A stretch of DNA of 62,785 nt, filler included, from Choristocarpus tenellus KU-1152 (Eukaryota > Protista > Phaeophyceae): the NCBI GenBank assembly GCA_964200185.2. It is 11 parts of 11 records of this genome, joined end to end, with 100 filler letters (N's around TTAATTAATTAA, not from the genome) between each part and the next. Parts side by side here need not be neighbours in the genome. Positions count along the whole stretch, not along the records: positions 3,501 to 6,091 come from CAXNAD020026474.1; positions 6,192 to 17,691 come from CAXNAD020002285.1; 9 more parts are not named here. One strand, 5' to 3'. Under the pieces are notes generated by a model. The model was given only the letters and a program-made list of their open reading frames with translations, did not search any database and was not told where the DNA came from. The position numbers and the translations under genes were made by a program. This document shows positions 5,981 through 62,785 of this stretch, in pieces (positions within the stretch are counted from its first letter, which is position 1; every line of letters begins with the position of its first letter).

Positions 5981-6501
5981 CTGGAGAGATGAGGATGGCA
6001 CCAGGAAGGAGAGGGGGGGGGGGTGATGACCTTTGAAATGGTGAGAGAAAGAGATGGTGCGGACTAGGAGTTGGATTGTGGGATGTCAGAGNNNNNNNNN
6101 NNNNNNNNNNNNNNNNNNNNNNNNNNNNNNNNNNNTTAATTAATTAANNNNNNNNNNNNNNNNNNNNNNNNNNNNNNNNNNNNNNNNNNNNGGGTTGGTT
6201 TTCCGACGCGGGCGCCCCCTCCCTACCCCCCCCCCCCCCCCCCCCTCAGATACTTTGACCCGGTAGGAGAAAGTTTTGGTGTCTTTGGGTTAGGGTTAGG
6301 GTTGCTCTTTTGTAAAGATTATCTTTCTTGTTCGTATCCTCGTCCTCCTCTACTCCCTCTCCTAGCCCTAACCCTAACCCTGTGTGGAGGCTTTCATGCA
6401 ATTACATGGAACTTTTGAGGGTTAGGGTTAGGGGTGATTAACGGTTTTTGTTAACCACCCCCACCCCCCCAAGATACTTTGAACCCTCACGATGAATTGA
6501 T

Positions 6502-6798
6502 GACCCAAAGTATCCTTTTTTTTCTTTACAGGGTAGGAGACGCGTCCGTCTGGGGGGCCAAAATCCAACGTTGCGAAATTGATGTAATCTTGATGCAATT
6601 TTGGCTATCGTTTTTCTTAGGGAGTGTCAATATACACGTTCTGGACACATCTTGTCATAATGCATGTATCCATTTTACCTACTCCGAACACATTTTAGAG
6701 TGGGCAAAATGTCATAAAAGAACCCGTGGCAAGCCAAGGCCCCACGCGGACAAACAGGGCAAAAGGTCGTACCCTAACCCTAACATACTTTGTAACTC
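6502..6798. mobile_element. MITE family B, complete copy with 4-bp TSD (TGAT)
   Basis: GACCCAAAGTATC...ATACTTTGTAACTC, flanked by TGAT at 6498-6501 and 6799-6802. The interior is the reverse-complement homolog of 46647-46904. Confidence 0.8.
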
Positions 6799-7414
6799 TG
6801 ATGCTGCTTGACATTTATGCACACACACAAAAGTTAAGAAGATACAACCCTCCGAACAAATACCAAACATTGCAGCACCCTAACCCTAACCCGTTAAAAC
6901 ATACCCAGCCCTAACCCTAACCCGGTAAAACATACCCAGCACTAGCCCTAGCCCTAACCCTTTAACGCCGAGGAAGATTTTTTTTTTCTAATCCACAACA
7001 AAAAACGATAGGACTAGAAAAGGTTGAAATGATTCAGACCTTGCCATTAAAAAAGAAAAAAAAAATTGCACGAATCTTTCCTTTTCACACCACATGCATT
7101 CAAAACACTACCACTGTTTGCCTTCCATAGGGTTAGGGCTAAGGGTTAGCACCCCAGCATCTCACTACGCCCTGTGCACAAACAATAACAGTAACAGTAG
7201 CAGGAAGAAAACAAACAAAAGAATGAACTACTTTTCTTTTTTTTTCTTTTTTTCATGTCATTCATAGAAAAAAAAAAATGTATGTGGTTATGTCATTTAG
7301 AGTGTTTTGCCCTTCTTGTCATTTGTTGGGTACATCTTGTGCTCCTACTTCTTATCTAGACACACTATTTCTGCCCCTTTCTGATACCATGCTTTTTTGT
7401 TTTTTAAGATTCTA

Positions 7415-7615
7415 CCATGTTGTACATAGATTGATAGGTCTCCTCCTCCACAATAAGGTAACACCTTGAGATGCTGCTGCTGTTACTAATGTTGTACGCA
7501 GATAGGTCTCCTCCCCCACATTAAGGTAACACCTTGAGATGCTACTACTGTTACCAATGTTGTAAGCAGATAGGTCTCCTCCTCCACAGTAAGATAACAC
7601 CTTGAGATACTACTA
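7415..7615. repeat. 68-bp tandem repeat (~3 copies), intronic
   Basis: GATAGGTCTCCTCC.CCACA.TAAG.TAACACCTTGAGAT starts at 7433, 7501 and 7569. Confidence 0.85.
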
Positions 7616-8046
7616 CACTTTCCACTAACCCCAACCCTAACCCTAACCTCAACCTAATGCACACTGTGAATAAAAAAACAAAAAAATCAATCTATCAATA
7701 CACTTCACCCTCTGCCACTATGAAATCAAGACACACGGCGTAGACAGTTACCCTGTACTGTCCCGATAGAGTCCCGATGCAAGGGTAAAAAAAAAAACTA
7801 CTAGACCGAATTTGAAAATAACCCAATAATAAATAACAAAAAAAAAAAGGGAAACTTTTAAGAAAAACACATCAGAGAATAAATATACGCAATTAATAGG
7901 CAGTTCATATTTTTCTAAACAAAAAAAAAAAAAGTTTACAAAAAAGGAGAAAAAAAAAAGAAAAAAAAAAAATAAAAATTTTTAAAAAAAAAAAAAAAAA
8001 AAGTTTACAAAAAAGGAGAAAAAAAAAAGAAAAAAAAGAGACTGAC

Positions 8047-11000
8047 CTCTGTGGTCTCTGAGGACGACAGCGTTTCGCCCTGAGTCAGGATGTGAAGCAG
8101 CTTAGTAATCAGCTGCCCGCACCTCCGGGGGTGATTGGTGACCACGTTGCTATCACTAAATACCCTACACTCCTGCAGTACTGTAGCCTTCTCCAGATCA
8201 CTGTACGGCGAAACTGTCAGAAACAGCATTAAAAAAAAATTAAAAGCATTAGAATGCAATGAGAAGGGTAAGGTCTTAGACAGCAAAGAATAAAAATATA
8301 TATAACATGAGAGTATAAAAAAAATGTTGAACTTAATTATTTACCTACATGTACCTATAAACTTGACAAAAAAAAAAACTAACCCCTATCATCAAAATGT
8401 TTCCTGCAGTTCTTGTTTATTGAAAGCACGACATATGATGTCCTAATAATACCCTAACCCTAACCCTAACCCTAACCCCAAGCAAATACAGTGTACTTGT
8501 ACATAGCAGTCAAGTCCCTAACCCTAACCCTAACCACAGGATGATTTAGAACAGCTTGAACAAAGGATTAAAAAACTGAGGTGGGATGGTAAGTCACGTT
8601 CTTCAGGTTATATAGGGTTAGGGAGAGAGAGAGAGAGAGTTTTGTATTGATGTTCCAAAGGCTATGTATGTGTTGACAGGGAAAAACTTCCTCCTGTGCA
8701 TCATACCACAAAGAGCTACCCAATCGGAAGAGATACACAACGAAAGGAGCCCTTTCATTGGTCAATCCCCTTCGTTGTCACCACCAAAAGGAGCCCTTTC
8801 ATTGGTCAATCCCTTTCGTTGTCACCACCAAAACACTTCATCACAACTCACTACATTGGGCACTTACATTACCTATTCTTTGAGAAATATTATCTTCCAA
8901 TTTGGTAACATACCTATGCATCATCTACACTCCAACGGGAACCTTTCTGCCTTGAAGATCAGGGCCTTGGGATACTACACTAGTAGGAAGGTCATGTGCA
9001 CAAAGCAGGACTCTCAGTATGTGGATTTTCTAGACATTGGCTTTGCACCCAGGAAGAGATCCACAGTGTGTTCACTGCACAGGTGGCAACACCATTCCAA
9101 TATTTTTAGATGACAGAACGTCCCACTTCATACCAATGCAACTGCCATTTAAAATCATTCATCGAAATCATTAATGGTAATCACAGGAATGGTCTACTCT
9201 CCAATATTGAATTTCAAAGGTTTTTCCTGCCAGCAATACAGACTCTTGTTCTTGTTGCTTTTTATTTTATTTTATTTTATTATTATTTACTTGATCCTTT
9301 TACTTTTTATTTTATTTTATTATTCACCTGTGTGTTTTTTTAAACTCTGTGTGCAAAACATCAGAGGGTATAATAATAATAATAATAATTAACAGTACAA
9401 TATATATATAATATACATATATACTGGGCATCATGGACAGAATGATTCTTGTCTCCACATGTGTCCTGCATTGTGATCTCAAAGTTACAATGTCCTACTT
9501 GCCCCAGGAAATAAAATATGTATATATGTATGTATGTATACATATTTTTTTGCAGCAACACGAGGGAAGTGCTTTCAAGACTGACTGATCTATCAAGTAC
9601 TACCCTAACCCATAACATATCTATAACACCACTAAAAAAAAATGGAGAGTTGCAACTGACAAAATATGGCAGGTTAAGGTTAGGGTTAGGGTTAGGGTTA
9701 GTAAGGTATTGATGGAGTAAGGTAGGAGTTGAGAGGCATCATATTGTAGCCCCCTTTTCCACATTCTTACGGTAGCACCCAATAACCTTAACCCTAACCC
9801 TAACTGCCATAGAAAAGAAAAAAAAGACAGATTATGAACATCCATTGGGTTAGGGTTAGGGTTAGACTCATGGTGGAACAGAAGACAAATCGTCGTACTT
9901 CAACATTAATACCATGAAGATACAAGGAGAGGGATCCACCAATCAAGATTCAAAATAAATAAGATTTAACGAGTCTGAAAAGTGTATGGGCGCATAAGAA
10001 CATAAGAACATAAGAAAACATACTCATGATGTGTATGTATGTAGGCATCATACATGTTCTATAAAGGCAAGGGTTAGGGTTAGGGTTAGCGCGTAACAAA
10101 GTCATGGTTTCATCCAGGGTTAGGGTTAGGGTTTCATACTGTCAGGGACAATTTTGAAAAGGGATAGGATTACAAATATAGGCAGAGTTGGGGTTAAGGT
10201 TAGTTTACCAAAGTTCACCACACCAGGTACCGCTTATGTATACACACCATACATTACTTCCATTAAAAAAAAAATGGGGTGGTTGCTAAGAAAGATTCGA
10301 TAATAAAAACCAAATTTCTCCTAAAAAAGAACAGGCATGGATGACCCAGGATAGACAACAGTACAAACTTGATCTTCACCAGTATGTGTTCCACCCAAAA
10401 ATACTGTGAAGAGCTCTTTGCCCACAGCCCTTCCAACCCTAACCCTAATCCCAAACAAAAAAATGTCCACATTAATTATAAAAAATGCCACATACACACA
10501 CAAAAAAAAAATAATCCTACATCTTGAAAAGTCTGATAGAGGTCCCAATTGTAAAGATAAGAAAGATCCAAAACTGTGGTACAGGACGATAGACGTATGT
10601 TGGTGTATCGCCCACAGCAGTATGTGTGTAGAAAAAAATATTGTTTGCACTGCATTCACACCTTCAACTTATGGGGGTACAAAGGATATTTGATAATATA
10701 GGGACCTCACCCCCACCAAACAAACTACAGTCCGCTGTGGGTTATCAGTGGTAGCATGTGGTACTGTAGGTACAACCTGTTGTTCGGGGTGGTTCTCAGT
10801 GGTACCATTACAGTACTTTAGGAAAACCTACAGTTGGGTCCTAGTACTCAACAGTACCATATGGTACTGTACCAGTTAGCCATGAAGTTTTCACAGTCCT
10901 GTCGAGTGCAACTTAGGTCTTGTTATTACATCGTTATTAGGGTTAACCCTAACCCTCATTATTACATCGTTATTACATCCAAATTTAGTCAAAAACAAGT

Positions 11001-12286
11001 GTACACGCGCCAATTTTTTTTGCTTGGTAGGCTTGGCGCCATAGTGAACAACAAGTGTGCGTTACTTCTACATACAGTGTGACCCAAGCCTAAACATGAC
11101 CCTAATCACAGAATATGGTGGGAAAACAATGCTCTTGAAGGCCCTACATGATCAGAGGCTAGCTTGTGATCACATTAGAAATAGGACTGGGTAAATTACA
11201 AGGTATGAGTCAAAAACACGAAAATTGGAGTTGGGTAGGGTTAGGGTTACAAGACTTGAGTAGTTCTTGCAAGGAACAAATTCAAACCCTCTCAGCACTA
11301 TTGAACTGTAATGTGTGTAGTAGATGAAAACACCTGAGACCAACACCCAAAGCACACCCCCAAATCCAAGAGATGAAGCATATTGTTACATTCATTCACA
11401 TACTTAAAAAGGAAGTATGACGGTTTGATGACTTTCATTGAGGGTTGCGGTTATAGGTTACTCACTGCCAAGAGATAAGATTTGGGGTCAGAAGACATGG
11501 GTCTTAAATGAGTAATATAGAACTGAAAACCCAGAAAATAACTCTATGGGAAACATTTTCGGTGCAGGTTTCACTTTGAGACAAGATCAAGGAGTGAGAG
11601 GAATAGACAGACCCATTGCTGACCAGACCATCCTCACGTTAAATTGTTGGAACGCAAACACTAAACAGAGACTTCATCCAAGTCACACCTCCATGCAACT
11701 ACATGTCTAAATAAATATACTGAAAAATGAAATGAGAATATTAATATAGATATCATAGAAAATGGCATGTAAGACAAACGGCATGTGTACAACCCGACTT
11801 TCCAGCGAATTGATAATGGGATAGAGAGGAGTTCATAGCTTGCATTTAATGTTTTCTGCTTCTTGTAGAGGTTAGAAAAGGGCCAGGGATAAGGGTCGGC
11901 ATCTTCTGCCCGAATAGAGGTGACTTGGGGACAAAACAAACATGAGTGTCGACTTGCAATATTGATGCCCAGAAAGTGACTTTAAACGCAGCACAGGCAA
12001 TAGTGCAGTACACTATCGAGAAGAGAATATATTGTCGACACTTGTGACGTATTTCCATCATTCTAAAAAATATCCGGGTGGGTGACAGTGTGTGTGTTTT
12101 GTACTACTGATCATGTGATGGGCAAACCTGCATGCCAATGTTTCACTCACAATCGTCCTCGTCATCATTTTTGAACTTGTCCTTGAGAACCTGGATCTCC
12201 TTCAGCACATTGCTTACAGTCAGTGGCCTCTCCATCCCCGCCTCCCCCATCCCAGGTAATCCTCCATTGCCATTCATATCGTTCAT
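8047..12286 (-). CDS. COPG: Coatomer subunit gamma, 5' part (exons 1-2)
   Basis: Exon 1 at 12286-12151 (MNDMNGNGG...KDKFKNDDEDD+T). A 3.9-kb phase-1 intron follows. Exon 2 at 8213-8047 gives FSPYSDLEKATVLQECRVFSDSNVVTNHPRRCGQLITKLLHILTQGETLSSSETTE, the conserved gamma-COP N-terminus. Later exons were not found on this contig. Confidence 0.92.
8744..8833. repeat. ~44-bp direct tandem duplication in COPG intron 1
   Basis: AAGGAGCCCTTTCATTGGTCAATCCC.TTCGTTGTCACCACCAA x2. Confidence 0.85.
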
Positions 12287-13106
12287 CGTGCCTATCGACA
12301 AAGTGACACTGAGGAGTCTGCAGTGCACTTCCTGCCTGGTTGCCCGGAGCCAAGCTCACCACAAGGCACGTCCTAGGCTGAGAGTGCGTAGATGGATTGC
12401 GTCAAGCCTCTAACGCCAAATAGAACCCACACGTGTGCAAATCTCGAGCGTGTCTAGGGTGTCACTTCTAGCCAGGGAGTTGCTGCCTAACTGCAAGGGG
12501 GAAATCGCCAATCGTTGAAAGCTGAAGAGAAAAATAGTGGTTCCAAATGGATTTTCAAGCGCATTGGGTGCCTTTCCCGGAGGCACCATAGGCCTTCACA
12601 GAATATCAAAGCCCTCCAATGAAAAGTTCGTTCAGAATATGCAGGCTAGGAACCTTGCCTCTCTCTGCTCAACCTTGCCTTCGGTCAGGGATCAACTTTT
12701 CCTATTGCTATCAAGCTCAGTAACAGATAAGAACAAAACATTCTACACCCTGGTGGCCTGTCTTGGAAAGGCCATCACCCACCTTTTTGTCCGCTCTCAC
12801 TCTCTGTTTGGTAGTGTCACTTCTAAGTCTTATTAATACTAGTCCAGTCTTCATCCTGTTGGACAACAAATTCGTCGGTAGATAATGAAAATTGTCTGAA
12901 ATCGGGAAATTGTGTCGGTCGGTGTACCCGAGTCATCCTTGATCCTAACCCTAGACCTAATCCCTGAATTGCCACGCAATGTTGATATTCAAGTCAGTCC
13001 ATCTACACAACCTTCGAGTGCTTCAAAGGACTTTTGGTGTTCTTTGAGGGGACACTGCTGCATATATCAAGTCAATTGACACTAAATTTTCACTTGCCTA
13101 GCACTA
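12287..13106. promoter_or_regulatory. Probable bidirectional promoter / 5' UTR region between COPG and the divergent plastid-protein gene
   Basis: Head-to-head start codons about 0.8 kb apart. The region looks richer in CpG than the flanking introns (judged by eye, not counted). Confidence 0.5.
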
Positions 13107-16100
13107 ATGATGCGCCCTCCAGCAAAGGGAGAGGTTTGGAAAAGCCGAAAGAGGATGGGAATGACAGTTAAGATGGCATCCGTCGCGCTGGCTTGCAGCC
13201 TTAAGCTCACTTCGGACACGGCTACAGCTTTTCTGGCTGGCTATTGCAAATCTACATGGCCGGCAACTGTACCTCTGGGTGTTAGGATGCTGCCAGTAGC
13301 GATGACTGGGACACGGCGACAAGGGATGGGGAGAAGGGTAGCAAAGGGGTGCTCGATGATGGCTGATGATATGGGCGGGGAAGTTGACCGGAGGCTGGAG
13401 AATGCAAGAAAAAAGTTCGAAAGTAATCTAGGAGAAGGAAATACAAAGGTAAGGTAGTTTTTCTTGTTCATCTCGCCGTACTCTCGGCATTCAATTTACG
13501 ACAATTTCCTCTACGATCTGTTATTCGCAGCGTACGGGGTGGTTGAAGTTACCTTTCGTGGTCCTATTATCGCATTTTTATCGGAATTTAGTGTCCAGGC
13601 CCTTGTTATCGAAGGCATTGTAAAGAGATAGCACATTGTGATAGTTTTCCCAATCAATGGTGATGCTGCAACTCCTACGGTATCATCGTTTGTTCCTCAT
13701 TGAAAGAACAGAGCTAATCATGACTGTGTTGTTGGTATGGCGAAAAAGACATACACAGTCAACACTTCCACTTCATAAAGAAGGAGTGTGTTGCTATTTG
13801 ATGTCCAGCTTGCACCACTTTCTTTCCAGTTGCTTGTCTTTAATACTTTACACATCTGAATGTCTGTTCGTAAATTTGAATCCCTATGCAGTGTTATGTA
13901 CATTCGACTATTTTATCCCCGTGCAAGTCGATACGAGTGACATGGTCAAGCTATCAAAAGGCAGGGCGTATTTTTCGCTTGTAGAACTCCCTACATACCT
14001 AACAAGGCGCGAAAGAGGATGTCGGCGTCTGCTGTATATAAATGCGAGTGGAACCTGTACCAAATGCTGCCACATCATACGCGAAAAACTTGCTGCCTTT
14101 GCGGTCAATTGGAAGCCTCGGAAGAATCCATAGTGGAGCCAACCCAATTCTTGAGATGCGGGATAGTTACCAAGGAGTTCTCCATCGCCTATCTTGCCTA
14201 TTCTTGCACCACGAATCAACTTGACTTGACACCACAAGTTCAATGCAAGTTCTACTTGTTCGTTGCAAGAGACTACAATAAGACTTGGGCATTTCCGCTC
14301 CAACCCTAACCCTAAGTATGACAACATTCTTTTCTTCCATCCCATGATGACTTTTCATTTATGAGGAGTGATCGTATCAACCTTTTTAGATGAGATGAAC
14401 TCTTGATGTAAAAAGTAGCACATCGTGATAGGAACCCCTTTATTATATTTTTCCACCTTGCTCATAGCAATCTTCCCATGGAGAGAGTCATCCCCACCAC
14501 CATTCCCGTGAGTCAGCAGGAGGAGGAGGACATGTTTGCCCAATAACTTGACGAACCCTCAGCAAAGGAGAGCATCTTATTATTGGTCCTGAGTGTGTGG
14601 ACCTCTCTCTCCGTATCTCCTCTATACAATATCCTGTATCTACCATTTGGCTGTATTGTGTGTGTCTCACAGGAGTGTATCCGTGCCATCCGACAGTCTG
14701 GGGCAGATCTTGCTCTCGACATCAGATCGGGCTCAAAGGTAAGCACTCCCCATGCTCCAATCAGCCTTGTAACACCTTGCTTGAAAGGTGGTGATCCTTT
14801 TGAAAGGGTGTATTGTCTGGTCTCAGGGTTGATTTTACTGTTGAACTACAATTCATGACTATTGGGATTCTCAAGAATTGGGGGGGAGTTCCAGGACAAG
14901 ACTCCGGTATGTTGTAGGGTTGAAAGTCGAGTCGAGATACTTGCCATACCAGATCATCTGGTACAGCCTACAACCCTAACCCTAACCCAAATCTTAACCA
15001 ACAGTGTGGAAGAAATGTTGTTAGGGCTGGGACTTGGAGTTCAGGTTGGGGTAAGGGGTCAAGACGGGGTCAAGAGATGTAGAATAGCAGCCCCATGGTG
15101 TTGATTGAGTGGTTTCAATATATACTGCTGGCAGCTGAAAATTGGGGTCAAGTCTGTTTATTATGTTCAAGGTTAGGGTTAGGGTTAGGTTATGTTCAAG
15201 TTCAAGGCCAAAGGTTACATTGTCAGATGTCAAAGATAGCACTTATTGATGGGTGCCCTTGCAAGTAGGGACACCCTTCCGCAGGAGACTCTGAGAGGCG
15301 ATTATTTAATCTTCTGATTGTGGTTTGCAAATTTGCTAACTTTTGATCTACCTCCATCTTAATTTTCCTACTGTTGTGAAATGATGTTGTACTGCTTTGA
15401 TTGCTTATTCTGTGTAGCGATTGAGCTCTTGGACGTTGTCTTCAACATTGGTGAGACACAGAGGCACACAGAGGCGGTGATTTAGGGTTAGGGTTAGCTT
15501 ATATTATCTAGCCCTATCCCTTGCCAGACTAGTGAGTCTATGAACTACAGTATTGTATTGACTATTTCGCACTTGGACAAGACCAAGATAATACAAGTAC
15601 CAGAATTGTACTGTACTGTACTGTACCTCAGTGTACCAAGGTAGTACTGTTACTATTAATATAGTGTTGTACTGCACTATTGTAGTTGGAATGCTTTAGC
15701 CTACTGATAAGATTTCCAATGATTTTGGCACTTTTTCTCACCAACTGTTGCTGTAGTGTTGTAATAGGTAGTGGGTTAGGGTGAGGGCTACTCTTCTGTT
15801 GTAACATAGTTATTCCGTAACCATAACGCAAGTTATTGAATTACACACACGTATTTTTTTTTATAGACGTGCATTGTGACTGTAATATGTAGCCCTAACC
15901 CTTATTTAATGCTGTGAAACTACTATTGTTATCAATATATCGGTGCATAGAGATTGTGTTGTTGTTAACACTTAGTTTATGCTGTGCTCCTCCAGTGATT
16001 TCACAGAAACCCTGGCAGTATGGAATCTCCCCAGTATTCAACCTGAGCCCAACCCTGCACCCAGCCCTAGTAAAGCATTGGAATGTCGCATCCTCTGGAT

Positions 16101-16258
16101 GTCAACTAGCCCTAGCCCTAACCCTAACCCTAACCCTACCAATGATAACAAAATACACTGTTTTGTTTCAGCTGCTGGATGAAGTGGCCAAGGAAGTCCT
16201 TAACGATCCCTCTCAGGCAGAGGAGGATCTTCTCAACAGTGCGTACAATGCCCTCAAG
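13107..16258 (+). CDS. Uncharacterised, probably plastid-targeted protein, 5' partial (3 exons)
   Basis: Exon 13107-13448 contains MASVALACSLKLTSDTATAF, an ASAF-like cleavage motif, then a basic transit-like region; the true start may be a downstream Met. Exon 14673-14738: ECIRAIRQSGADLALDIRSGSK. Exon 16172-16258: LLDEVAKEVLNDPSQAEEDLLNSAYNALK. All introns are phase-0 GT-AG. Confidence 0.7.
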
Positions 16259-17300
16259 GTGCATGTTCTACTACCACATTTCGACTCTAGTTTTTCCTCT
16301 CTAGTTTTGCATCACCGCTAACCCTAACCCTAAGCATCACAACAGTGCGCCTACTAACCTACTAATAGTCCATCATCCCTAACCCTACCTCATAACATCA
16401 GTGGATTTGATTGTAGTAGTAGTAATAGCAGTGTGATGTCCCTAACCCTAGAAACGACTGCATTAATAATACATTGCAGCATTAATGCACCAGACCATTT
16501 TACCTGCTAGAACTATCCATCACCTCTCAACCCTAGCCTTACCTTAACCTTAGGCATAGCCATAGCCATAGCCATAGCCATAGCCCTACAAGGATACTTC
16601 AGAGAGGTCCCCAGTGTCAGAGCAATACAGATGTCTATCTAACCCTATCCCTAACCCTGAACCTTTATTACCAATATCGTGTGCTCTATCTGAAAGGGTT
16701 AGGGTTGAGGGTCTGTGGTAGGACAAAGACATACTCTTATTTTCTACTAACCCTAACCCTAACACTGACAGTGTACCTAGGAGTTCTAAACCCTGCCTTG
16801 AAGCGTGTTCCAAACCTCACATTACTAACCCTAACCCTTACACTTGAGTATTCTGTGGGACACAACTTGCCCTAACCCTCAAATTCACGTAAATGTACAA
16901 GGTTTGGAATGTAGTAGAACAATGCATATCCCCCATCCCTAGCTCTAACCCTAACCCTAACCCTAAGTTGGAGTACGACTAGCCTGAAGTGTAATCCATA
17001 CCGTTAATGATTCTGTTCATCTTCACAATCCCATGGTTCTAACTAAAAATGTCCCTAACCCTAACTCGAGGTGTGGATTGTGACTTGCCCCAACCCTAAC
17101 CCTAAATGAAGTTACCTTTTTTATTATTACTATTATTTTACCTTTTAGTAGACCACTCAAGTCTATTCTAAGTAGACCTTACGAAGCGTGTATCTCCTAT
17201 CTCCTTCCCTAACCCTAGCCATAGCCTGCCCCCCACCTGCCGTTTTTCTACCTCTCCAGTTAGATCGGCCAACCATCTGCCAAGATTACAATGTAATAGA

Positions 17301-17691
17301 ACCTGTATTAGTACTGTAGTACTGTAACAGTAGTACCCCCTCCCCTAACCCTAACCTGTACTAATACTGCAATACTGTAACAGTAGCACCCCATCCCTAA
17401 CCTGTACTAGTACTGCAGTACTGTAACAGTAGTACCCCTTCCCTAACCCTAACCTGTACTAACACTGCAATACTGTAACAGTAGCACCCCATCCCTAACC
17501 TGTATTAGTACTGCAGTACTGTAACAGTAGTACCCCTTCCCTAACCCTAACCTGTATTAGTACTGTAGTACTGTAACAGTAGTACCCCTCCCCTAACCCT
17601 AACCTGTATTAGTACTGTAGTACTGTAACAGTAGTGCCCCTCCCCTAACCCTAACCTGTACTAATACTGCAATACTGTAACAGTAGTACCC
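17301..17691. repeat. Minisatellite, ~46-53-bp unit containing 1-2 CCCTAA hexamers (~8 copies, runs into the gap)
   Basis: Repeating unit ACCTGTA(T/C)TAGTACTG(T/C)AGTACTGTAACAGTAG(T/C)ACCCC..CCCTAA(CCCTA). Confidence 0.9.
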
Positions 17692-21300: not shown

Positions 21301-23579
21301 CATACACAGGCACCAAGAAGTTCATTTTTTAATATTATTTTTCATGTAAAAAACTTTCTACCACTATACCATTCTCCAAGAAAAAATTAATATTTTTCAA
21401 AATTCACTCCCCATTTATAAAACCAAACACGTAAAGACTAAAATAAATTCAAATTGTTGTTCAATCAACACTAAATCCCCCCCCCTAAAAAACCATGCAA
21501 AAAGCAGAATATTTGGAGTAAGTGGTTAACACCCCCCCAAATAGTACAATCTTGAAGGAAATGAAGAAAACTATCACCTTCTGCAGCTTGTCCTTCTCCC
21601 TCAGCCGAGCCTCCCTCTCTAGCCTGCTAGCCTCCTCTGCCTTTCTCTTTGCCTCATCCTCAGCCTTAACCCTAGCCTCCTCCCGCTGACGCTCCTGCAG
21701 AAAAAAACAAAAAATAAGGATTGTGAACCGGCACCAACTACAATCAAACACATAAACAAAAAAAATCAACTTTTGAATAATAATAAATAAATCGTCAGTC
21801 GCCAACACAACCCCCCCCCCCCTCTTGCTTTACAACTTACTCAAATAAATAACATTTAAAAACAAAACAAAACAAAGATCTGATCTTCTCCATCCTTGGT
21901 GAGATAAGAGGCGAAAACAACATAATGATGGGGCAAAAAACACACTGCAAAACATCTAAACACTGTATGTAATAAACTACTGCTTCCATCACAATTAACT
22001 AAATGCACCCCATTCGATGCTGGGGAAAAGAGCATAAAATGTTGTGCACCTGCTCTCTTCTTTCTGCCTCCTCCTTGCGCTTCTCGATGATGTTCTTACG
22101 ATTGAGTGCATCCGTATGCTCCCGAGGCATTCCACTCACCTAATCCACATTATGAGAAATATATATATACATATATACAGGTACACCATGCAATAGTGGC
22201 ATTAGGGTTAGGGGTCAGGGAATTTGTACTGTATTGTATTGTCAAAGGAACAGAGGCATAGTACAGTGATAGTATTACTATCGAAATATCCATACAGCTG
22301 TATTAAAAAAAATCGATCTACTAGGAAAGGGTCAAAACACTTCTTTTTTTGACACCATAAATTAGTTTTTTGTTTTGTTTGACATGTTTAAAGATGAACA
22401 CAAGAACGTTTCCATGCAAAAAATGAAAGATGACAACGAGGACTCTTCAACGGACTCACGGTTGCTCTTCAAATGATCATTTTTTTTTTTGTCTACAGAT
22501 TTCCACTGGCAAGAAGTGACTGTGATCACCACTAGTGAGGTGAAGTGGTATCAATCAAAGCCCTCATCAAAACAAACTGCCCCTTAACTAAACCACACCA
22601 ACAACTAAAACTACTACATCATATTACATCTCCAAACTAAAAGACATCAATAAATAAATGATACTTCCACACCTCGGTCAACTCTACATACACATCCCAA
22701 ACTCCATCTTTTGATTCATATTACGAGAAACAACACAGCACTAGTTCTTAGATATTGCAAGGCGTGCATGCATATTTACTCCGCATATATATATACTAAC
22801 AAATGATAACACCATTCTAAACATGCGGACACATCAAGGTTCACAAAAAAACCCCAATCAGATCAACCAACAAGGTTCATGTATGCACACTCTTTTAGCA
22901 CCTATGGTTTCTTCCTATGATACCCCTATAGCTACACCACCAGCACAACAAAAAACATAAATCTGAACAAGGACTCAAATTAAACATCCTCTACAGCATC
23001 TCCCAAAGGAGGGCTTGATCACAACCCCACACCCCCTTTCAATATTCAACACACAAAACAACAGAATCCACTCCCCAAAAGGTCACAAAACTGTCCCAGA
23101 ACACAATCTCCCAAGAGATACTACTGATTCACCCCGAATGACTCAAAAACCAAACCCTAATCCTCAAGACTTACACATCTTAGAACAGCAACCCTCACCC
23201 AAATTCAAACCTCAACAAACCAGATCACTGTATCATAATCTATTCACACCCACCACTATGACAACAAGAACAATAATATATCGAATCACACTACACACTT
23301 CTGATCTAATCTTCCTGAGGATGACCTGCCCCCACCCTAAACATCCATTCGCACCCCAGGACAAGCAACCATGCCCTTGCATCCAACACATAACACTAAT
23401 CCCACAAACAAGAGCCTTACCACCATGTCAAAGAACGCCATCCTCTGCTGCTTGCTGTTCTTCTCCTCCTTGGGATGCACCAGTGCCACTGCCTTCTGAA
23501 GTTGTGTTGCCAGGGTACTTAACTGTGTGCGCATAGAGTCTGTCTCCAACACCTCCCCACCGAAACGTAGGCATCGAGC
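18321..23579 (-). CDS. EIF3A: Eukaryotic translation initiation factor 3 subunit A, partial (8 internal exons, post-PCI helical/coiled-coil region)
   Basis: Exons at 23579-23421, 22139-22050 (EHTDALNRKNIIEKRKEEAE), 21694-21578, 21060-20962, 20265-20116 (KRLDYITRALRMEEMPVL, cf. eIF3a K.DYFERAKR.EE.PLI), 19709-19647, 19149-19057 and 18386-18321. They splice into one open frame. Confidence 0.9.
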
Positions 23580-28003: not shown

Positions 28004-29349
28004 CTCAAAGAGTCCATGCGACCTGTGCAGGGCCTTGATGTATGCACACGCCAACCGTGCCACATGTCCCCGGTATACAACAGCAAACAAGTCCTTGACA
28101 AATTCTGCCAATGCTGCGTTGATCATCTCCGCATGACCCAGTGCCTTTGACTAGACCCAAGGAGGGAGGACAGATTCGCCAGTTGAAGAACAGGATAGTC
28201 ATCACAGTGAAATGCCAATGCCAATGCCAATGCCAATGTAATGTCATTAGGGTGATCAATAATGGGATGGGGGGATTGATACCATCAAGTATAGTGATAC
28301 TAAGGGTGAACAAGAAAGGTATCCTGCTCCATATGACCTCTTTTTTTTTGCTAGTTAATGAGTGTAACCAAATATGGAATAATAATCTACCATGGATTCA
28401 TACCAGTGGTTGGGAATCCCAACCTGACCCTGAACCCCTCCCTCACCCTAACCCTCCTGAGGCCTTGTTATCCCCACCTCGACCCTCAAACACTAAAAAC
28501 AATTACATAAACACAGGAGTGAATGAATATTTGATTCCATACTCACACCAAAATTCATGGGCATGGTCAAACATATGTTACATGGTGATAGCGCCATCCA
28601 TACCTCACTGATCTGCTGAGCAAGCAGGATAATGAGCCTCTCCAGCTCATCCAGGAAGGCGTCATCAAGACGGATAGGTGGACGCAACTACCAAAACAAG
28701 CAGAGGACAGAGTGGCACATTTTTCAAAGATAAAATTTCAATACTTCAATAAATAAAATTCAGAGGCAAAAGTAGGAAAAGTAAAAATAAAAATTTATCA
28801 CTCTACTGCATCTCCTAAGATGTACAAAAAAAAAAAACCCTCTCAACTCAGGGTTCATGAACATCTATCCCACCGGGCATACTGCATATCTTTCTTCTCA
28901 CATCTTTCTGCGAATACTTTTATGCAATCACTTGCGAATACTTTTATGCAATCACTTGCGAATACTTTTTCCCAACACATCCTACCCAAGACCACTCTGT
29001 GTCTATCTCTACTCCGACTGAAACAACCCAATCAACGGCAAGCTGTGCATTGCCAACCACACAAGGGATGTCAGTAGGGTTGGAAAATGCAGAGGGCAGT
29101 CAATTTTTCCGAGAAAATGTTTTTTTTCGTGTACAAAAAAATAAATACATGGTGAAAAAAAATATGTAGTGTGGGTTCTGACAGGTTGGTAAAACAGTGT
29201 GAGCAAAATTGGTACAGTATAAAACTAAACCAAGATATCAAGATAGCTCCAACAAGTTATTTCCCAAGTAGTCAAACCATAGCGTTGACTAGACAGCAAC
29301 CCTATTTACATCCATCAACCACAGTAAAAACAAAAACATCAAAAACAAC

Positions 29350-35263: not shown

Positions 35264-37099
35264 TTAATCAGCAAGTCCCCTGGTCCACATCTCATCGTTC
35301 AGCAAATCTGCACGTTCCGATTGGCCTGCCATTCTGCATGCTGCCATGACTGCTTTGTAGGTGACAACAGTCAGAGGAACATCCTTGGCCCGCATCTCAT
35401 CCATCAGCAAGAGAGCACGCTCCCACTGCCCACAAACTCCACATGCCTTGATAGCTGCAGTGTAGGTGACCGTATTTGGGGCAATACCCTTGACCTGCAT
35501 TTCATTTAGCAGGAACAAAGCACGTTCCAATTGTCCCCCATCCCCGCAGGCCTGGATAAGTGAAGTGTAGGTGATGTTATTGGGGGCTATTCCCCTCGCC
35601 TTCATTTTCTCCAGCAAAAATAAGGCATGCTCCCACTTTCCCCCATCCCCACAGGCCTTAATGGCAGAGGAGTAGGTGATCGTGTTTGGGTTAATCCCTT
35701 TAGCAGACATCCTTCCCAATAATGACAGAACAAGCGTCCACTGACCTCCATTCCCACAAGCCTGGATGACTGAGTTGTAAGTGATTGTATCTGGGGTAAC
35801 CCCTTTGTTTTGCATGCCCTCCAGCAGTGATACAGCCTGCCCCCACTGTCCTGCATCTCCACAAGCTGTAATGGCTGTGTTGAAGGTGTAGCTATTAGGG
35901 GTAACCCCCTTGGACTCCATATCATCAAGTAAAAACAAAGCCTGTTCCCACTGCCGTTCACCCCCACAGGCTTTGATCGCCACACTGTAGGTATGTGCAT
36001 TTGGGGTGACACATTTTGCTTGCATTGCGTCCAGTAGGGACAGGGCTTGTTCCCATTGCCCACTATCCCCACATGCCTGGATGGCTGAGGTGTAAGTGAT
36101 AGTATTGGGAGCAAGCCCTTTGAATTCCATGTCCTCCAATAGCCATATTGCTTTCTCCCATTGCCCTCCCTTACCACAAGCCTTGATAGCAGTGGTGTAG
36201 GTGTGAGGATTGGGAGTAATGCCCTTTGACAACATCTCGTTCAGCAGCAATAGAGCACGCTCCCATTGACCTCCATCCCCACACGCCTTCATCGCCACGC
36301 TGTAGATGTTTGCATTAGGAGTGACACCGTTGGTCTCCATCCCATCCAACAGCAACAGGCCATGTTCCCATTGGCCTGCTTTCCCACAGGCCTGGATGGC
36401 TGAGGTGTAGGTGACTTCATCGGGGGGTCTTCCTCTCGCCTGCATCTCATCCAGTAGTGACAAGGCTTTTTCCCACTGTCCCCTATCTCCGCAGGCTTTT
36501 ACAGCGATATTATAGCTGAACACATCGGGGGGAATTCGCTCTGCTGGCATTGAATTCAATAATTCAAGAACACGTTCCCACTGGCCCCCATCTCCGCAGG
36601 CTTTCAAAACCGCGTTGTAGGTGAAGATGTTGGGGTCAATACCCTCCTCCCGCATCTGACTCAGCAGCGAAAGAGCAAGCTTCCACTTTTTACAGCTAGC
36701 CATGACCCGAATGCAGCTGTTGTAAATGGAAGTAGTCATGAGCATACCTTTGGCCTTGGCTTTATCAAGAGACCGTATTGAACCCCTCCAGTCGCCAGTA
36801 TTTTTCCTGGCTTGCATTTGTCCCACGAACGTCGCCTGATCGGTTGATACCCTACGTTGAGAGTGTCGACCACGCAGGTCTTCTTTTCCCAATTTTGACC
36901 TTAATCCTTTATCGCGCTGATTTTCTACGGGCTTCTCCTCCATTTTACCGTTACCATCTAAGTTGTTCAACCTCGATTGACAGCACTGTTGCGTAGTTCG
37001 ACACCATTGTCTGCAATGACACGGAGTTAGAAGCCATGGCACCGGAGACAAACTATTCACTGTTACCACATTGCGGGTAGGTACCCCCTTGAAGATCAT
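35264..37099 (-). CDS. P-class pentatricopeptide repeat (PPR) protein, 611-aa uninterrupted ORF with 14 tandem 35-aa motifs
   Basis: Repeated TY(N/T/S).AI.ACG..GQWE.AL.LL..M...G..P(N/D). No C-terminal E/DYW/SMR domain. An in-frame acceptor (TTTTACAG) 27 nt upstream of the ATG may indicate another 5' exon. Confidence 0.95.
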   Translation of the reverse strand: MIFKGVPTRNVVTVNSLSPVPWLLTPCHCRQWCRTTQQCCQSRLNNLDGNGKMEEKPVENQRDKGLRSKLGKEDLRGRHSQRRVSTDQATFVGQMQARKNTGDWRGSIRSLDKAKAKGMLMTTSIYNSCIRVMASCKKWKLALSLLSQMREEGIDPNIFTYNAVLKACGDGGQWERVLELLNSMPAERIPPDVFSYNIAVKACGDRGQWEKALSLLDEMQARGRPPDEVTYTSAIQACGKAGQWEHGLLLLDGMETNGVTPNANIYSVAMKACGDGGQWERALLLLNEMLSKGITPNPHTYTTAIKACGKGGQWEKAIWLLEDMEFKGLAPNTITYTSAIQACGDSGQWEQALSLLDAMQAKCVTPNAHTYSVAIKACGGERQWEQALFLLDDMESKGVTPNSYTFNTAITACGDAGQWGQAVSLLEGMQNKGVTPDTITYNSVIQACGNGGQWTLVLSLLGRMSAKGINPNTITYSSAIKACGDGGKWEHALFLLEKMKARGIAPNNITYTSLIQACGDGGQLERALFLLNEMQVKGIAPNTVTYTAAIKACGVCGQWERALLLMDEMRAKDVPLTVVTYKAVMAACRMAGQSERADLLNDEMWTRGLAD

Positions 37100-37439
37100 T
37101 CGAACCCTTCGTAGAAATGGGTTGGCCTGTAAAATGATACCAACCTACGACTAAGTTGTAAGCTCACAACAAATTTTGTAAGTAAGAGTTGTGCAACATT
37201 AGGCTTATCTTCACTACTTGTTCAATTTGACAATAGAGAAAATGTAAAAACCTGCCTTCCCAAGGTGGATGAGTTTTGTAGGTAATGGGTAGGGTTAACA
37301 CACAATAGGATAGCGCACAGCATTATTAATTAATAGTGAACAAAATAAATAAATCGGTTCCAAACAATATCAGAGATCACAACAACAACAGAGACCTCTT
37401 CTTGTTTTTCAACAACCAAATTACCACCTATCATTTTAT

Positions 37440-53241: not shown

Positions 53242-55862
53242 TTATTCATGGGACCAGTTGCTCAGGTTGTGGTATTTAGGAGGTCAATGTCAAGTGCGAA
53301 CGTGGGTTGTAACGACCTGACAGTGGTTATGTGAACGTGTGCCTGTGTGGGGGCCCATGAATCTCTCTCTGCTTACGTGTTCATCATCTGTACATGTGAA
53401 TATCTGAATCCTTGGCGTACCTTGAACGTACCACGCAGATTGCGATCATTTTCTGTGTTGCTGATGCATGATACACACCTTTTCATGTCGCAGCCTGAAA
53501 TGTGCGAAAAGTTAGATCGTGGTCTTACAGACATTGACAGCTTTGTTTACTTTCAGATGCTTCAATCATATCTTTAACATAGAAATAGACAAGGCGCTGG
53601 ACCAGTTGGTGCCCTTGGCATCTTGTATTCCACTGTAACAGGAGAAAGTTGTGGATCCTAAATCGTTTTCTATAGTTTGTGATTATCTGACTTTTAACAT
53701 TTTCGTTATTGGTTACTAAATATATTATTTCGATACAACACCAAGATTCTATCGAAATCGTTGATTATGTCACCATTAAACTGACACAGGAGGAAAACAT
53801 GTTTATTTTTAGTGATCACATCGTTCAGTACATTGCCCCCAATAATATAAATATACTGAAAATGCGTGATCAGGAAACGCGGGGAGCAACAGTATGAAAC
53901 TAGTTGAGAGAGATGCATCAGGGATTGAGCGACTAGCTAGATGCACGCTGTCTCCCTCTGGAACCATATTTACCACTCATACAGCCCTACAAAAAATATT
54001 TTCTGGATCTCCAAAAATTTTTCACAGGCACAATCTGACACGAATCACCATGTAGTGAATACTGCTTTCTTAGGAAAGATTCACAAGCAACGTATCCTTG
54101 GTCGGCTTGTTGCTTTTTGAAACTATCTACCTGATACTTTGAAGTATGGTATATTTGAAGCCGAGTCAGATATAAATCGTCCAATAAATGACTTATTGAC
54201 TTCACTACTTCCTGCCTGACTGTAGTCACACGATAAGATATATTCTGTGAGACTAGCTGCGCCTTGTAATATCTTTAGAGTTATGTGATGCTGAGTCCAG
54301 ATAGAGAGTGAATTTCTGACACCTTTCTAGAAAGATTTTACGCTTTCCCCCCCATTGTTCAATAGTTCCTGTACAGGTATTGCAGAATAAACATGTTGTA
54401 AGCATTGATCCCCATTGCGGCGGCTAGACAATATGAGCATATTGCATATAAATTCCAGCTTGGGAATGCAGGTTGAACGAGGTGCGCTGTCAAGAGCTCA
54501 CACGTCATTTGCTACTGCAAGAGGCATTCATTTCTGAGTGTTTCCTAACTCCGCGCAGCCCTTTCTGCATTGCGTGTTGGCTCCTCCTGTTGTGATTTAT
54601 GCTCCTCTCTGGATGGCACACGAGTATAATATGAAGGAAGGCAAAGATATTTGATAGAGTAAGTAATAGTTAGGTCTCTGTTCAAAATTACCTCAGAGAT
54701 GCATGTTGGAATGTGTTCCCTACCATAAGTTAGATTATACAGAGTGCCCCCAGTGGGACATATGATACTACTATACAGAAATAGGCCTGCTAAGACAAGG
54801 TAGACACAAGAGAGCAGGACAAACGGCAATTTATGAATTACCAGCACCGTGTGCACCTCAATGGGGCTGTGGTTGCACTGCTCGCTTCTGTAGCATTGAG
54901 TCAAAGTAATTAAGAGGAAGGCAGGGCTGCACCATAATGATCCCGAAAAAGGGCAAAAAGTCGCCATTTGATTCAATTGCAGGAAGAGACATAGCCAAAT
55001 TGTGGTGTCACATTGTGTGTGTGTGGAAAGGGGGAATATCATTTTTTCATGCACTACAATTTTGCACATACAATGCAATGAAATAGAGTGTAGTTGCACA
55101 AGAGAACAATGATAACTGAGAATGCAAAAGGTCCCAAGCCTGCCTACCTCTCAATTTCTTTGTTGCACTTCAAGTTGTTGCAGAACTAGGTAGGTGAGAT
55201 ATTGTCATGAACGGGTAAGGCTGGGCTCAGCATTCTCAGGGGGAGCGTGTGTTAAGCTTTTTTTGTGTAGGTGGGTTTCAAGTGTCCCGCTTTTAGGTAT
55301 ACCCTTGCCTTTATTCTCTAGTAAATGTTAGGGCTAGGGTTAGGGTTAGAGTAATTGCAGTTTTTAATTAAGGTTAGATCCTGTTTTTTTTTTTCTCGAG
55401 CTTCTGAGGGCATTCCATGAATAGCCAAAATTATAATTTATGTTGGACTCACGTGCCAGCAAGTGACCCACCCACAACTGTGGAAAAATGATACTTTCAA
55501 ACTTCTTACTGCAGCACTGGCTATATACCCATGTCTGCCGCCTGCCCAATACTCCATGTCCCCATGACCAAACGATGGATGTACACCAAAGTATGTAATC
55601 ATCCAAATCTGGGTCAAGGGCACACTTCCAACTTCAGAGTACTTAGAGCGCTTAAAACATCATACTTGTGTGCACTTCAAGGACAGTAGGAGTTACGATA
55701 CGAAATCGTACTACAATGGAAGAAGATAATCAAGATCTTAAAAAAATAAAAATAAAAATCATTTGGATATTTTTCGAGTTAGACAGCATAAAAAAGTGTG
55801 GTTGGAAATATGGGGGGGTAAGATCTCACAAAGATGGTCTTGAGGTCCTACCTCTACATGAA

Positions 55863-59568: not shown

Positions 59569-59719
59569 CTGTCCAGTTGGGGTCAATTTTTTCATGTCGT
59601 GATTTTTGGGTGATTTGGTTGCATACGTCGGATGGTTACTGCAAATGCACTTTTCCTGAGTTCGACCCAAATGGACACCCTTGTGTAGACCCCCCCCCTC
59701 CTCCCAGATATTTTGGCTC
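59569..59719. mobile_element. MITE family A, truncated by contig start (another TIR at 59446-59468)
   Basis: The interior matches 62395-62570 and ends CCCAGATATTTTGGCTC. Confidence 0.85.
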
Positions 59720-59725
59720 TGAGTC

Positions 59726-61316: not shown

Positions 61317-61872
61317 CAACACAGCTATCATTTTGTGCTCAGTAGTCTTTGACAGCGGTGCCGTGCACGTAGGTGTACCATCACACTGGACGGCATTGGC
61401 AAATCTTTGTTTAGATTTAAAGTAGTTCTTTACTTAATGGAAATTATTTTGTGTCAGATCCTCTTATCTTGAGCTTCTGATGTACTAATTAAACAAAGCT
61501 GTCAACCATGACCTTGTATCAGGACCTTGAGCAATGCTTAAGCATCGATGATGATCCCAGCACTTTCAGAAGGTTGGTTACGGTATAATATTATCCACTG
61601 CTCAGAATGAAGTGATCTGCTCTTGTCCATGAGGACAATCTTTACCTAACTACATTTTCAGCAACCAGTGGCAATTACTTCTTCCTTTTGACGTTGACTC
61701 TCAACCACTCTCTATATAGTACTGACAAATGACTCTTTATCCTGCATCACTTCTTCCTACCTCTTCTTTTATGTACTTCACAAAAGTGCAATACCAATTG
61801 TACCGTTCACTACAACAAATAGTGTCAATAGCGCAAAACGCAAACCACTGTTTGACAAGCAAGATTCCATTA

Positions 61873-62765
61873 TCAGGACCTCACCCAAACAACCTCTCCG
61901 TTTTCTTCCTTGTACTTGTAGTGTGTTATGAGCTTCTTCGTAAGTTAATCAAATCTCACCTCCCTCTCCACATACTCTTCAAATCCCCCTCCCCCCTGGT
62001 CCCTTGGCATGCCCATCCGCGTGAAATCAATGTAAGGGTCACTGTAGAAGGCATCATGCAGACCAGCATCTCCTGTCCACTCAGTGTTGCCCTCCAACTC
62101 TCCAAGATCATCATATGAATGAAGCATGTTTTGCTATATGCAACAAGTGAAGAGTATGTTATCTATCTTCTTTCTGTGCGAATATAGTAGTGGCAGCTTG
62201 AGGATTCTGAAGCAGCCCTTGACTCTGCCAAAAGAGCACTTGACATCCTTGCATACACTCTCCACTCGTCTGCTCCACCTTGCTTGTGCCTGTGTGACAG
62301 ATGCCCTCAGGGGGCATATTGTGCACCTCCTCTTCAAATGCAAAGATATGGTTGGGTAAAGGAATGTTGACTTGCTAGTTTGATGACCACATATGGCTCA
62401 AAGTATTTGGTGGGGGGTGGCAGCTGCCCGTTTGGGGTCAATTCTTTCATGTGTCGATTTTTGGGTGATTCGGTTGCGTACATCGGATGGATAATGTAAA
62501 TGCATTTTTCCTGATTTTACCCAAATCGACACCCTGGTGTATACCCCCTCCCCCCCAGATACTTTTGGCCTCATTTTCACAGGAGCTAACCCTAACATAG
62601 GCATGGCCGTACAGTCACGTTTTCCCTGTCACGTTGTGGTAGCCCCCATCGACAAGGACAGAGGCCCCTTTCTCGGTGTAACAGTTCCTGACGGAGTCCT
62701 TGAAATCGTACTCCAGCTGTCAGTATGTGGGGTCATTCCTAAGTTTCTGGATAGCACCGTCATAC
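61873..62765 (-). pseudogene. Harbinger/PIF (DDE_Tnp_4 / Plant_tran-like) transposase pseudogene, C-terminal half, intron-containing
   Basis: Exon 62765-62633 ends ...VLVDGGYHN, with a stop at 62720-62722. Intron 62632-62332. Exon 62331-61873 reads RWSRRVESVCKDVKCSFGRVKGCFRILK...NILFTCCI*QNML...LITHY...EVVW, with stops at 62134 and 61945. Confidence 0.85.
62395..62570. mobile_element. MITE family A, complete 176-bp copy nested in the transposase intron (another TIR interrupts the exon at 62766-62785)
   Basis: GGCTCAAAGTATTTGGTGGGGGG...CCCCCCAGATACTTTTGGCC. The TSD is not cleanly preserved (ATAT/TCAT). Confidence 0.88.
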
Positions 62766-62785
62766 GACCCAAAGTATCTGGGGGG

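What the first reader, a model, noticed from the sequence alone, without database searches (positions are those of the whole stretch)
6287..17691. Introns pervasively written over with short telomeric hexamer tracts in both orientations: candidate telomerase-driven internal insertion process
Seen: dozens of 2-5 unit CCCTAA and TTAGGG tracts, plus CCCTAG variants, every few hundred bp through the introns of two ordinary genes, in mixed orientation and never in the mapped exons. Sparser tracts occur on other contigs (~4975, 22203, 28446, 55328, 62587). Known: real telomeres and fusion relics are long arrays, and short interstitial telomeric sequences in vertebrates have been attributed to telomerase acting during double-strand-break repair. 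Inference: this lineage may routinely add telomeric repeats at internal breaks or nicks with TTA/CCCT seeds, at very high density and with strong variation between contigs. This could also load telomere-binding proteins or G-quadruplexes onto gene bodies.
Basis: partly seen in the sequence, partly recalled or inferred. Interest (0 to 1): 0.78.

Follow-up and report, generated by a model that had tools for sequence, protein, structure and literature searches.

The report
Telomere-repeat scars peppering seaweed introns
One stretch of a brown seaweed genome carries about 40 tiny pieces of the chromosome-end repeat scattered through the introns of two spliced genes, likely scars of DNA breaks patched by telomerase; it is a local hot zone, possibly near a chromosome end, not the rule for the other DNA seen here.

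Summary
The finding is one 11.5-kb contig (6192-17691) of a brown alga, holding the 5' parts of COPG and a second spliced gene. It has 41 perfect telomere-phase tracts of 10 nt or more outside a terminal satellite (dinucleotide shuffles: 0.22), no other hexamer class comes close (34 vs 2), and read-derived contigs contain the tracts tested. They lie in both orientations in random order, share no flanks, avoid exons and the promoter, and 4 of 40 sit between 7-17-nt direct repeats (1.3-3.2% in controls); one is a head-to-head miniature fusion. G-strand 3' ends are phase-biased, 5' starts are not. This fits piecemeal insertion at repaired breaks, as for mammalian short interstitial telomeric sequences, at thousands of times their density. 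Telomerase is inferred, not shown: no empty allele or telomerase-RNA sequence was found. 'Routine in this lineage' is not supported: the other ten contigs are 27-fold poorer and G-quadruplex motifs are barely enriched. A 98-bp satellite with three telomere hexamers ends the contig, like the Ectocarpus subtelomeric satellite in size, so a chromosome-end domain is plausible but unmapped. New variant of a known kind.

The parts
6192..17691 (.). Tract-rich contig of a brown alga: 50 telomere-like tracts (43 outside the satellite: 28 CCCTAA-type, 15 TTAGGG-type on +), 4.35 per kb
12152..12286 (-). COPG (coatomer gamma) first coding exon; spliced-type coverage runs 12151-12768, so the 5' UTR likely reaches about 12768
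   Evidence: tblastn; run X3 record 17
8044..8211 (-). COPG second coding exon, 89-95% identical to brown algal COPG; the rest of the gene lies beyond the left contig end
8212..12151 (-). COPG intron 1, 14 tracts (8 G-type, 6 C-type), none between 11250 and the exon
6192..8043 (-). COPG intron 2 (cut by the contig end), 9 tracts, one of them duplicated inside a 31-bp tandem unit (6878-6954)
12769..13074 (.). Divergent promoter gap (inferred from the two covered 5' ends) with one degenerate tract at 12944-12960
13075..13448 (+). Gene 2 exon 1 (unidentified protein), spliced to exon 2 across a GT..AG intron
   Evidence: joint 13446-14671 in run X3; no family or relative found
14673..14738 (+). 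Gene 2 exon 2
   Evidence: joint, and loose end that continues with the letters at 16172
16172..16258 (+). Gene 2 exon 3 (start shown by the X3 loose end; end inferred from an AAG/GT donor context)
16259..17299 (+). Densest zone (intron 3 or 3' region of gene 2): 12 tracts in 1.04 kb, 11 of them CCCTAA-type
10923..10975 (.). Head-to-head miniature fusion: a 19-nt insert (10940-10958) with a G-type tract meeting a C-type tract at a palindromic centre, between two copies of a 17-nt repeat (10923-10939, 10959-10975); left copy ends in TTA, in register
   Evidence: bridged without differences by contigs of X1 and X2
15161..15200 (+). Three-unit tract between two copies of an 11-nt repeat (15161-15171, 15190-15200)
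10106..10137 (+). Tract between two copies of an 8-nt repeat (10106-10113, 10130-10137), two extra bases at the left junction
16309..16340 (-). Tract between two copies of a 7-nt repeat (16309-16315, 16334-16340), two extra bases at one junction
17300..17691 (.). Satellite of 52/53- and 46-bp subunits, alternating for five units as a 98-bp period with three CCCTAA hexamers, then 52-bp units; runs off the contig end
4973..4986 (+). Isolated tract on another contig (GluRS gene fragments nearby)
22202..22213 (+). Isolated two-unit tract on another contig
28445..28455 (-). Isolated tract on another contig
55327..55349 (+). Isolated tract with one variant unit on another contig
62586..62596 (-). 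Isolated tract on another contig

Best explanation
The tracts are short interstitial telomeric sequences in old introns, likely added one at a time when telomerase extended the 3' end of a DNA break by one to four repeats before end joining closed it, in a local domain that is probably close to a chromosome end. Shown: the tracts are real, dense, mixed in orientation, unique in their flanks, absent from exons, and sometimes framed by short duplications. Inferred: breaks as the trigger (from the duplications and the head-to-head junction, where two extended ends would have annealed at a 2-nt palindromic overlap), telomerase as the enzyme (from unit identity, short length and 3'-end phase bias), and the chromosome-end position (from the terminal 98-bp satellite and the rarity of such tracts elsewhere). 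Selection would remove inserts from exons and near the promoter; slippage and local tandem duplication then lengthen, vary or copy some tracts (31-bp tandem, satellite).
For: Only the telomere class is enriched (34 vs 2); the same hexamer is the Ectocarpus telomere (PMC11541908, passages). Orientation 28:15 in random order (20 runs vs 20.5 expected). Flanks of 41 loci no more alike than shuffled flanks. Direct repeats of 7 nt or more frame 4 of 40 loci against 1.3% of cross-paired flanks (P=0.002) and 3.2% of random positions; horse short ITSs show duplications at 3 of 66 loci and head-to-head cases (PMC7215372, passages). G-strand 3' ends are non-uniform (14 of 40 perfect cores end after the G triplet, P=0.003 against a null with chance extension) while 5' starts are not (P=0.30) (same pattern with degenerate scoring, P=0.005 vs 0.76). 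COPG exon boundaries match predicted relatives that read into the same introns, so the introns predate the tracts (inference). One X1 contig spans 10520-15840 (8 tract loci) with 0 differences; listed X2 pieces bridge 5 of the 8 with 0 differences. Local, not general: 4.35 vs 0.16 per kb; 9 perfect tracts of 18 nt or more in this contig, 0 in the other 50.4 kb, and only 788 of 1,405,250 X1 records were laid on a stretch with such tracts, 665 of them in part only. Ectocarpus subtelomeres carry a ~98-bp satellite with three TTAGGG motifs; brown algal telomeres cluster in Hi-C (10.64898/2025.12.07.692804, passages).
Against: No empty allele: no letters left out or put in among the 3 runs, which are one study, and X1 may be the source. 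No telomerase-RNA-derived sequence could be tested; PMC8287931 passages name no brown algal telomerase RNA. Only 1 of the 4 duplication-flanked loci has a 3-nt in-register seed, and 2 have none. 36 of 40 loci have no flanking repeat; against the random-position control the excess is about 4 vs 1.3. Both the duplication thresholds and the phase test were chosen after looking, with n=40; the 3' excess could partly be mutation of the first T. Neither contig end is shown to touch a telomere; COPG runs off the left end, and tracts beside the satellite point the way expected for a telomere on the left, not the right. The count of other loci is a lower bound (the tool drops human-like records), so the process may be wider than it looks. 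Small-scale clustering is not significant (P=0.051 and 0.155).
Confidence: 0.55

Rival explanations
1. Same breaks, different donor: pieces of telomeric DNA or telomeric RNA are captured or copied into breaks without telomerase acting at the site (recombination with nearby clustered telomeres, filler DNA, or a LINE reverse transcriptase copying telomeric RNA).
For: Explains mixed orientation, unique flanks and duplications equally; 7-17-nt duplications are also typical of LINE-type insertion (recalled); RTE, RTE-X, CRE and Penelope-like elements are abundant in Ectocarpus (PMC12477816, passages); subtelomeric ITSs were ascribed to recombination with telomeres (PMC2246262, passages).
Against: Captured fragments should have random ends on both sides and a long tail of lengths; here cores stop at 28 nt and only the G-strand 3' end is phase-biased. 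Only 4 of 40 loci have duplications, low for retrotransposition.
Confidence: 0.22
2. Ordinary microsatellites grown by slippage from chance hexamers and kept by selection in this region as binding sites for a telomere-type Myb protein, like plant telo boxes.
For: Brown algae have telomere-binding-type single-Myb proteins (SJ09381, Ec-24_000780; PMC8854648, passages); perfect units are enriched 13-fold while most one-change variants are near background; one tract sits in the divergent promoter gap.
Against: Plant telo boxes peak in 5' UTRs and first introns (PMC3022908, passages); here the promoter region is a trough (1 vs 8.6 expected, P=0.0007). Slippage does not give one tract between two copies of a flank, nor a head-to-head junction. 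Introns of other housekeeping genes in the window have few or none.
Confidence: 0.12
3. Remnants of one decayed telomere array or chromosome fusion.
For: The last kilobase and the satellite are nearly all one orientation (11 of 12).
Against: Over the contig orientation is mixed in random order; tracts are mostly perfect and separated by unrelated sequence; one-change variants are near background; they sit inside conserved introns of a spliced single-copy-type gene.
Confidence: 0.05
4. Tails or termini of a small mobile element.
For: Some loci have target-site-like duplications; other contigs of run X1 show close pairs of tracts, often C-type then G-type like inverted termini (tables 5 and 5c).
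Against: No shared sequence on either side among 41 loci; loose ends of hundreds of other records agree only about 0.4; the spacers listed between paired tracts differ from each other.
Confidence: 0.05
5. Assembly or sequencing artefact.
For: The assembly is fragmented and contains long homopolymers; only 8 of the 41 loci were laid on reads-derived contigs.
Against: Contigs of two runs carry the tested tracts letter for letter.
Confidence: 0.01

Closest known systems
Short interstitial telomeric sequences of primates, rodents and horse (PMC2246262, PMC7215372; passages read)
   Same: Same hexamer, short tracts, none in exons, found in introns, some framed by direct duplications or extra bases, occasional head-to-head arrangement.
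Ectocarpus subtelomeric ~98-bp satellite (PMC11541908; passages read) and Chlamydomonas Sultan repeats (PMC8287924; passages read)
   Same: Tandem unit with a 98-bp period and three telomere hexamers at the end of the contig.
   Different: Here two of the three hexamers are adjacent, the array is not shown next to a telomere and may be intronic; the Ectocarpus monomer sequence could not be compared (figure only). The passages read do not describe dispersed intronic tracts.
Plant telo boxes (PMC3022908; passages read)
   Same: Short telomere motifs in genes; a non-processive telomerase origin has been proposed for them.
   Different: Telo boxes are single units peaking at 5' ends; here 1.5-5 units with a trough at the promoter and peaks deep in introns.
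Pervasive interstitial telomeric tracts in the haptophyte Calcidiscus leptoporus (PMC13518057; passages read)
   Same: An intron-rich alga with frequent internal TTAGGG tracts.
   Different: Reported throughout the genome, with no junction analysis or mechanism in the passages read; different lineage.

Membership tests
Short ITSs inserted at double-strand breaks | Short tracts of the organism's telomere unit at internal sites with unique flanks | tested here: met
   unit matches the Ectocarpus telomere; this species' own telomere was not seen
Short ITSs inserted at double-strand breaks | End-joining scars at junctions (duplication, extra bases, inversion) | tested here: met
   4 of 40 loci with 7-17-nt direct repeats vs 1.3% and 3.2% controls; one head-to-head junction. 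Deletions cannot be seen without an empty allele
Short ITSs inserted at double-strand breaks | Orthologous empty sites exist | tested here: inconclusive
   No indels among 3 runs of one study over 8 loci; no brown algal locus among 43 fetched
Short ITSs inserted at double-strand breaks | [quoted passage not shown] | tested here: inconclusive
   Only the 4 duplication-flanked loci are readable: 3 nt, 1 nt, 0, 0
Short ITSs inserted at double-strand breaks | Co-inserted telomerase RNA sequence at some loci | not testable with these tools
   No brown algal telomerase RNA in the passages read; no Rfam match in the window
Ectocarpus-type subtelomeric satellite | About 98-bp monomer with three telomere motifs | tested here: met
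   motifs lie at two places here, three in Ectocarpus
Ectocarpus-type subtelomeric satellite | Adjacent to the telomeric array and confined to chromosome ends | not testable with these tools
   Contig ends inside the array; no genome held
Ectocarpus-type subtelomeric satellite | Sequence homology to the Ectocarpus monomer | not testable with these tools
   Monomer not in the supplements held as text
Plant-type telo box | Enrichment in promoters, 5' UTRs and near the 5' end | tested here: not met
   Trough around the promoter, 1 vs 8.6 expected
Fusion or decayed telomere array | Long array of one polarity, or two long facing arrays | tested here: not met
   Longest perfect tract 28 nt; random orientation order
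Mobile element with telomeric tail or termini | Shared body sequence next to the repeats | tested here: not met
   Flank similarity equals shuffled control

The most novel reading that the evidence does not exclude
In brown algae, breaks in active genes that sit inside the nuclear telomere clusters are routinely patched by telomerase, so intronic tract density is a fossil map of how close a gene has been to telomeres; the accumulated tracts then bind the telomere Myb protein and tie these gene bodies into the cluster, a self-reinforcing chromatin domain spelled in intron DNA.
Probability: 0.2. Interest if true: 0.78.

Novelty: new variant of a known kind. Interest (0 to 1): 0.52.

Why it matters
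In mammals telomerase-type insertions at breaks are rare, a few hundred per genome, which limits tests of the mechanism. A domain with one scar every 250 bp gives thousands of events per species once chromosome-level brown algal genomes are scanned, so seeds, junctions, end phase and dependence on distance from the telomere become countable, and Ectocarpus gene editing makes the role of TERT directly testable. It would also add telomerase as a source of intron growth in a lineage known for long introns.

Tried and rejected
No whole genome is held, so no genome-wide count by feature class. Run search: no RNA holder listed; X3 is not on record as RNA, and I use it only for the splice joint it shows. 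Metagenome scan for COPG gave 43 loci, best identity 84% over the longer matches, none that I could call brown algal; they hold 2 tracts in 260,792 bases, which says nothing about relatives. Gene 2 could not be named. Cluster look-up gave no chromosome position for COPG in Ectocarpus. A scan of viral contigs for facing tract pairs gave 5 loci with single hairpin-like clusters, not a dispersed pattern; dropped. Rfam: nothing. My recollection that Coccomyxa has thousands of short ITSs rising toward chromosome ends was not found in PMC3446292 or its two supplements and is not used. PMC12636532, PMC3622300 and PMC6410037 passages added nothing specific. Ten searches listed no paper on dispersed intronic telomeric tracts in brown algae; the library lacks most subscription papers, I read only passages, and bioRxiv supplements and figure-only supplements may bear on this. 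Local clustering test not significant. G-quadruplex enrichment weak. One search was a wrong-frame translation, not used. Earlier-findings look-ups by place and by sequence were empty. Rows dropped before counts: the 7 satellite tracts, the second copy in the 31-bp tandem, and the palindrome merged into one locus (41 loci); the first tandem copy also dropped from the duplication test (40); the phase test dropped the tandem copy and counted the longer arm of the palindrome.
Full report
Setting. The window is 11 contigs joined by N-spacers; the finding is exactly one of them, 6192-17691. No genome is held. An exon at 8044-8211 (minus strand) is coatomer gamma; its best named relatives are brown algae at 89-94% (Nemacystus, Undaria, Scytosiphon, Ectocarpus) against about 80% or less for most other stramenopiles, so the host is a brown alga or a very close relative. 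COPG exon 1 is at 12152-12286. A second gene runs the other way: run X3 has a contig that covers 13075-13446, joins to 14671 across a GT..AG intron and continues after 14738 with the letters found at 16172. That gene could not be named. All contigs are CpG-poor (observed/expected 0.34-0.54), which would fit a lineage that kept DNA methylation; DNMT1 is reported only in Discosporangium and two outgroup species (10.1101/2024.02.19.579948, passages). That placement is an inference and was not tested.

The observation. 30 of 31 loci with two or more perfect in-phase units are in this contig. Outside the terminal satellite there are 41 perfect tracts of 10 nt or more; 100 shuffles each give 0.22 (dinucleotide), 2.3 (4-mer) and 19.4 (5-mer, maximum 29). 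The telomere class has 34 tracts of 12 nt or more, the next hexamer class 2. One contig of run X1 spans 10520-15840, with 8 tract loci, without a difference, and listed pieces of X2 bridge 5 of these 8 without a difference. The three runs are one study and X1 may be the source, so this shows real DNA, not independent occurrence. Only this part of the contig was laid.

It is local. With degenerate scoring the contig has 50 tracts (4.35 per kb) and the other ten contigs 8 in 50.4 kb (0.16 per kb); five of the ten have none. Those contigs also hold intron-split genes (GluRS, an RFC subunit, a P-type ATPase exon, a ligand-gated channel), so the contrast is not intron against spacer. Perfect tracts of 18 nt or more: 9 here, 0 elsewhere in the window. 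In run X1, 788 of 1,405,250 records (349 million letters) were laid on the stretch, 665 only in part, with loose ends piling at the tracts and agreeing only about 0.4: hundreds of other loci with unique flanks exist, but at this contig's density they would fill under about 1 Mb. This is my arithmetic on a lower bound, as the tool drops human-like records. The background is still above chance (5 tracts of 10 nt or more, 3 of 12 or more in 50.4 kb), so a weak genome-wide rate is possible.

Anatomy. Orientation is 28 C-type to 15 G-type in random order, which excludes one decayed array. Flanks are unshared, which excludes element tails. Four of 40 loci lie between direct repeats of 8, 17, 11 and 7 nt (10106-10137, 10923-10975, 15161-15200, 16309-16340), against 1.3% of cross-paired flanks and 3.2% of random positions; the tract occurs once between the two copies, unlike a tandem duplication such as 6878-6954. 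At 10940-10958 a G-type tract meets a C-type tract at a palindromic centre, as two repeat-extended ends would if rejoined; the left repeat copy ends in TTA, in register. The other three show 1, 0 and 0 bases in register (read). On the G strand, 14 of 40 perfect cores end after the G triplet against 5.8 expected (P=0.003), while starts are flat (P=0.30); with variant units allowed, 25 of 40 end at TTAG or GGG. These tests were chosen after looking and n is small. No tract lies in 1313 exonic bases (chance 0.006), and 11250-14301 around the divergent promoter has 1 against 8.6 expected, where CpG is also higher. G-quadruplex motifs: 7 in 11.5 kb against 19 in 50.4 kb.

Position. Density peaks in the last kilobase (11.5 per kb), which runs into a satellite of 52- and 46-bp subunits with a 98-bp period and three CCCTAA hexamers. 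Ectocarpus subtelomeres carry a ~98-bp satellite with three TTAGGG motifs next to the telomere (PMC11541908, passages). The match in size may be chance: I could not compare sequences, the array may be intronic, and the tracts beside it point the way expected for a telomere on the left. So a chromosome-end position is plausible, not shown.

Mechanism. Best reading (0.55): breaks in this domain are extended by one to four telomere units, likely by telomerase, then closed by end joining; staggered breaks leave duplications, doubly extended breaks leave facing tracts; selection clears exons and the promoter; slippage and tandem duplication rework survivors. This works like mammalian short ITS formation (PMC2246262; PMC7215372; passages), where 229 human loci of four or more units were listed; here there are 6 such in 11.1 kb. 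Membership is met on unit, unique flanks and junction scars, and untested or inconclusive on empty sites, seeds and telomerase RNA. The main rival (0.22) keeps the breaks but takes the letters from telomeric DNA or RNA. A telo-box reading (0.12) fails on the promoter trough (PMC3022908, passages), though brown algae do have a telomere-type Myb protein (PMC8854648, passages).

Novelty. Ten literature searches listed no description of this in brown algae; passages of the Ectocarpus chromosome, transposon and lineage-wide papers did not mention interstitial tracts. Pervasive ITSs are reported in a haptophyte (PMC13518057, passages), and earlier unchecked notes of this scan describe single telomere inserts with duplications in other algae and scattered ones in an arthropod, so the process itself is not new. 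What is unusual is the density and its confinement to a domain of spliced genes. Verdict: observation confirmed, interpretation partly supported, new variant of a known kind, interest 0.52.

Noticed in passing
window 7433-7648: A 68-bp tandem repeat whose third copy breaks off at about 7616 and is followed within 10 bases by a four-unit telomere tract, as if the copy had been broken and patched.
   Followed up: no
window 16551-16585: A 5.8-copy hexamer array (TAGCCA class) two changes away from the telomere unit, ending in a telomere-like piece; possibly a mutated tract expanded by slippage.
   Followed up: no
window 12769-13074: COPG and gene 2 appear to share a divergent promoter gap of about 300 bp with one degenerate telomere motif at 12944-12960.
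   Followed up: partly
other contigs of run X1 (tables 5 and 5c): Many records hold two tracts close together; rows with a C-type tract followed by a G-type tract sum to 57 contig counts against 10 for listed G-G pairs. May be a bias of the tool; not seen as an excess in the window.
   Followed up: no
whole window: CpG observed/expected of 0.34-0.54 in all 11 contigs, higher near the promoter; unusual for brown algae said to lack methylation.
   Followed up: partly
window 35264-37144 (-): Intronless 626-residue frame with about 13 PPR repeats.
   Followed up: no
window 42594-43322 (+): Ligand-gated ion channel (PF00060) exon, glutamate-receptor-like.
   Followed up: no
window 59569-62785: GC-richer contig with several long frames (59723-61316) that match no Pfam family; possibly a mobile element or an orphan gene.
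   Followed up: no
L044-L048: Five viral-collection contigs with a single hairpin-like cluster of facing telomere-type repeats around a GC-rich centre.
   Followed up: no
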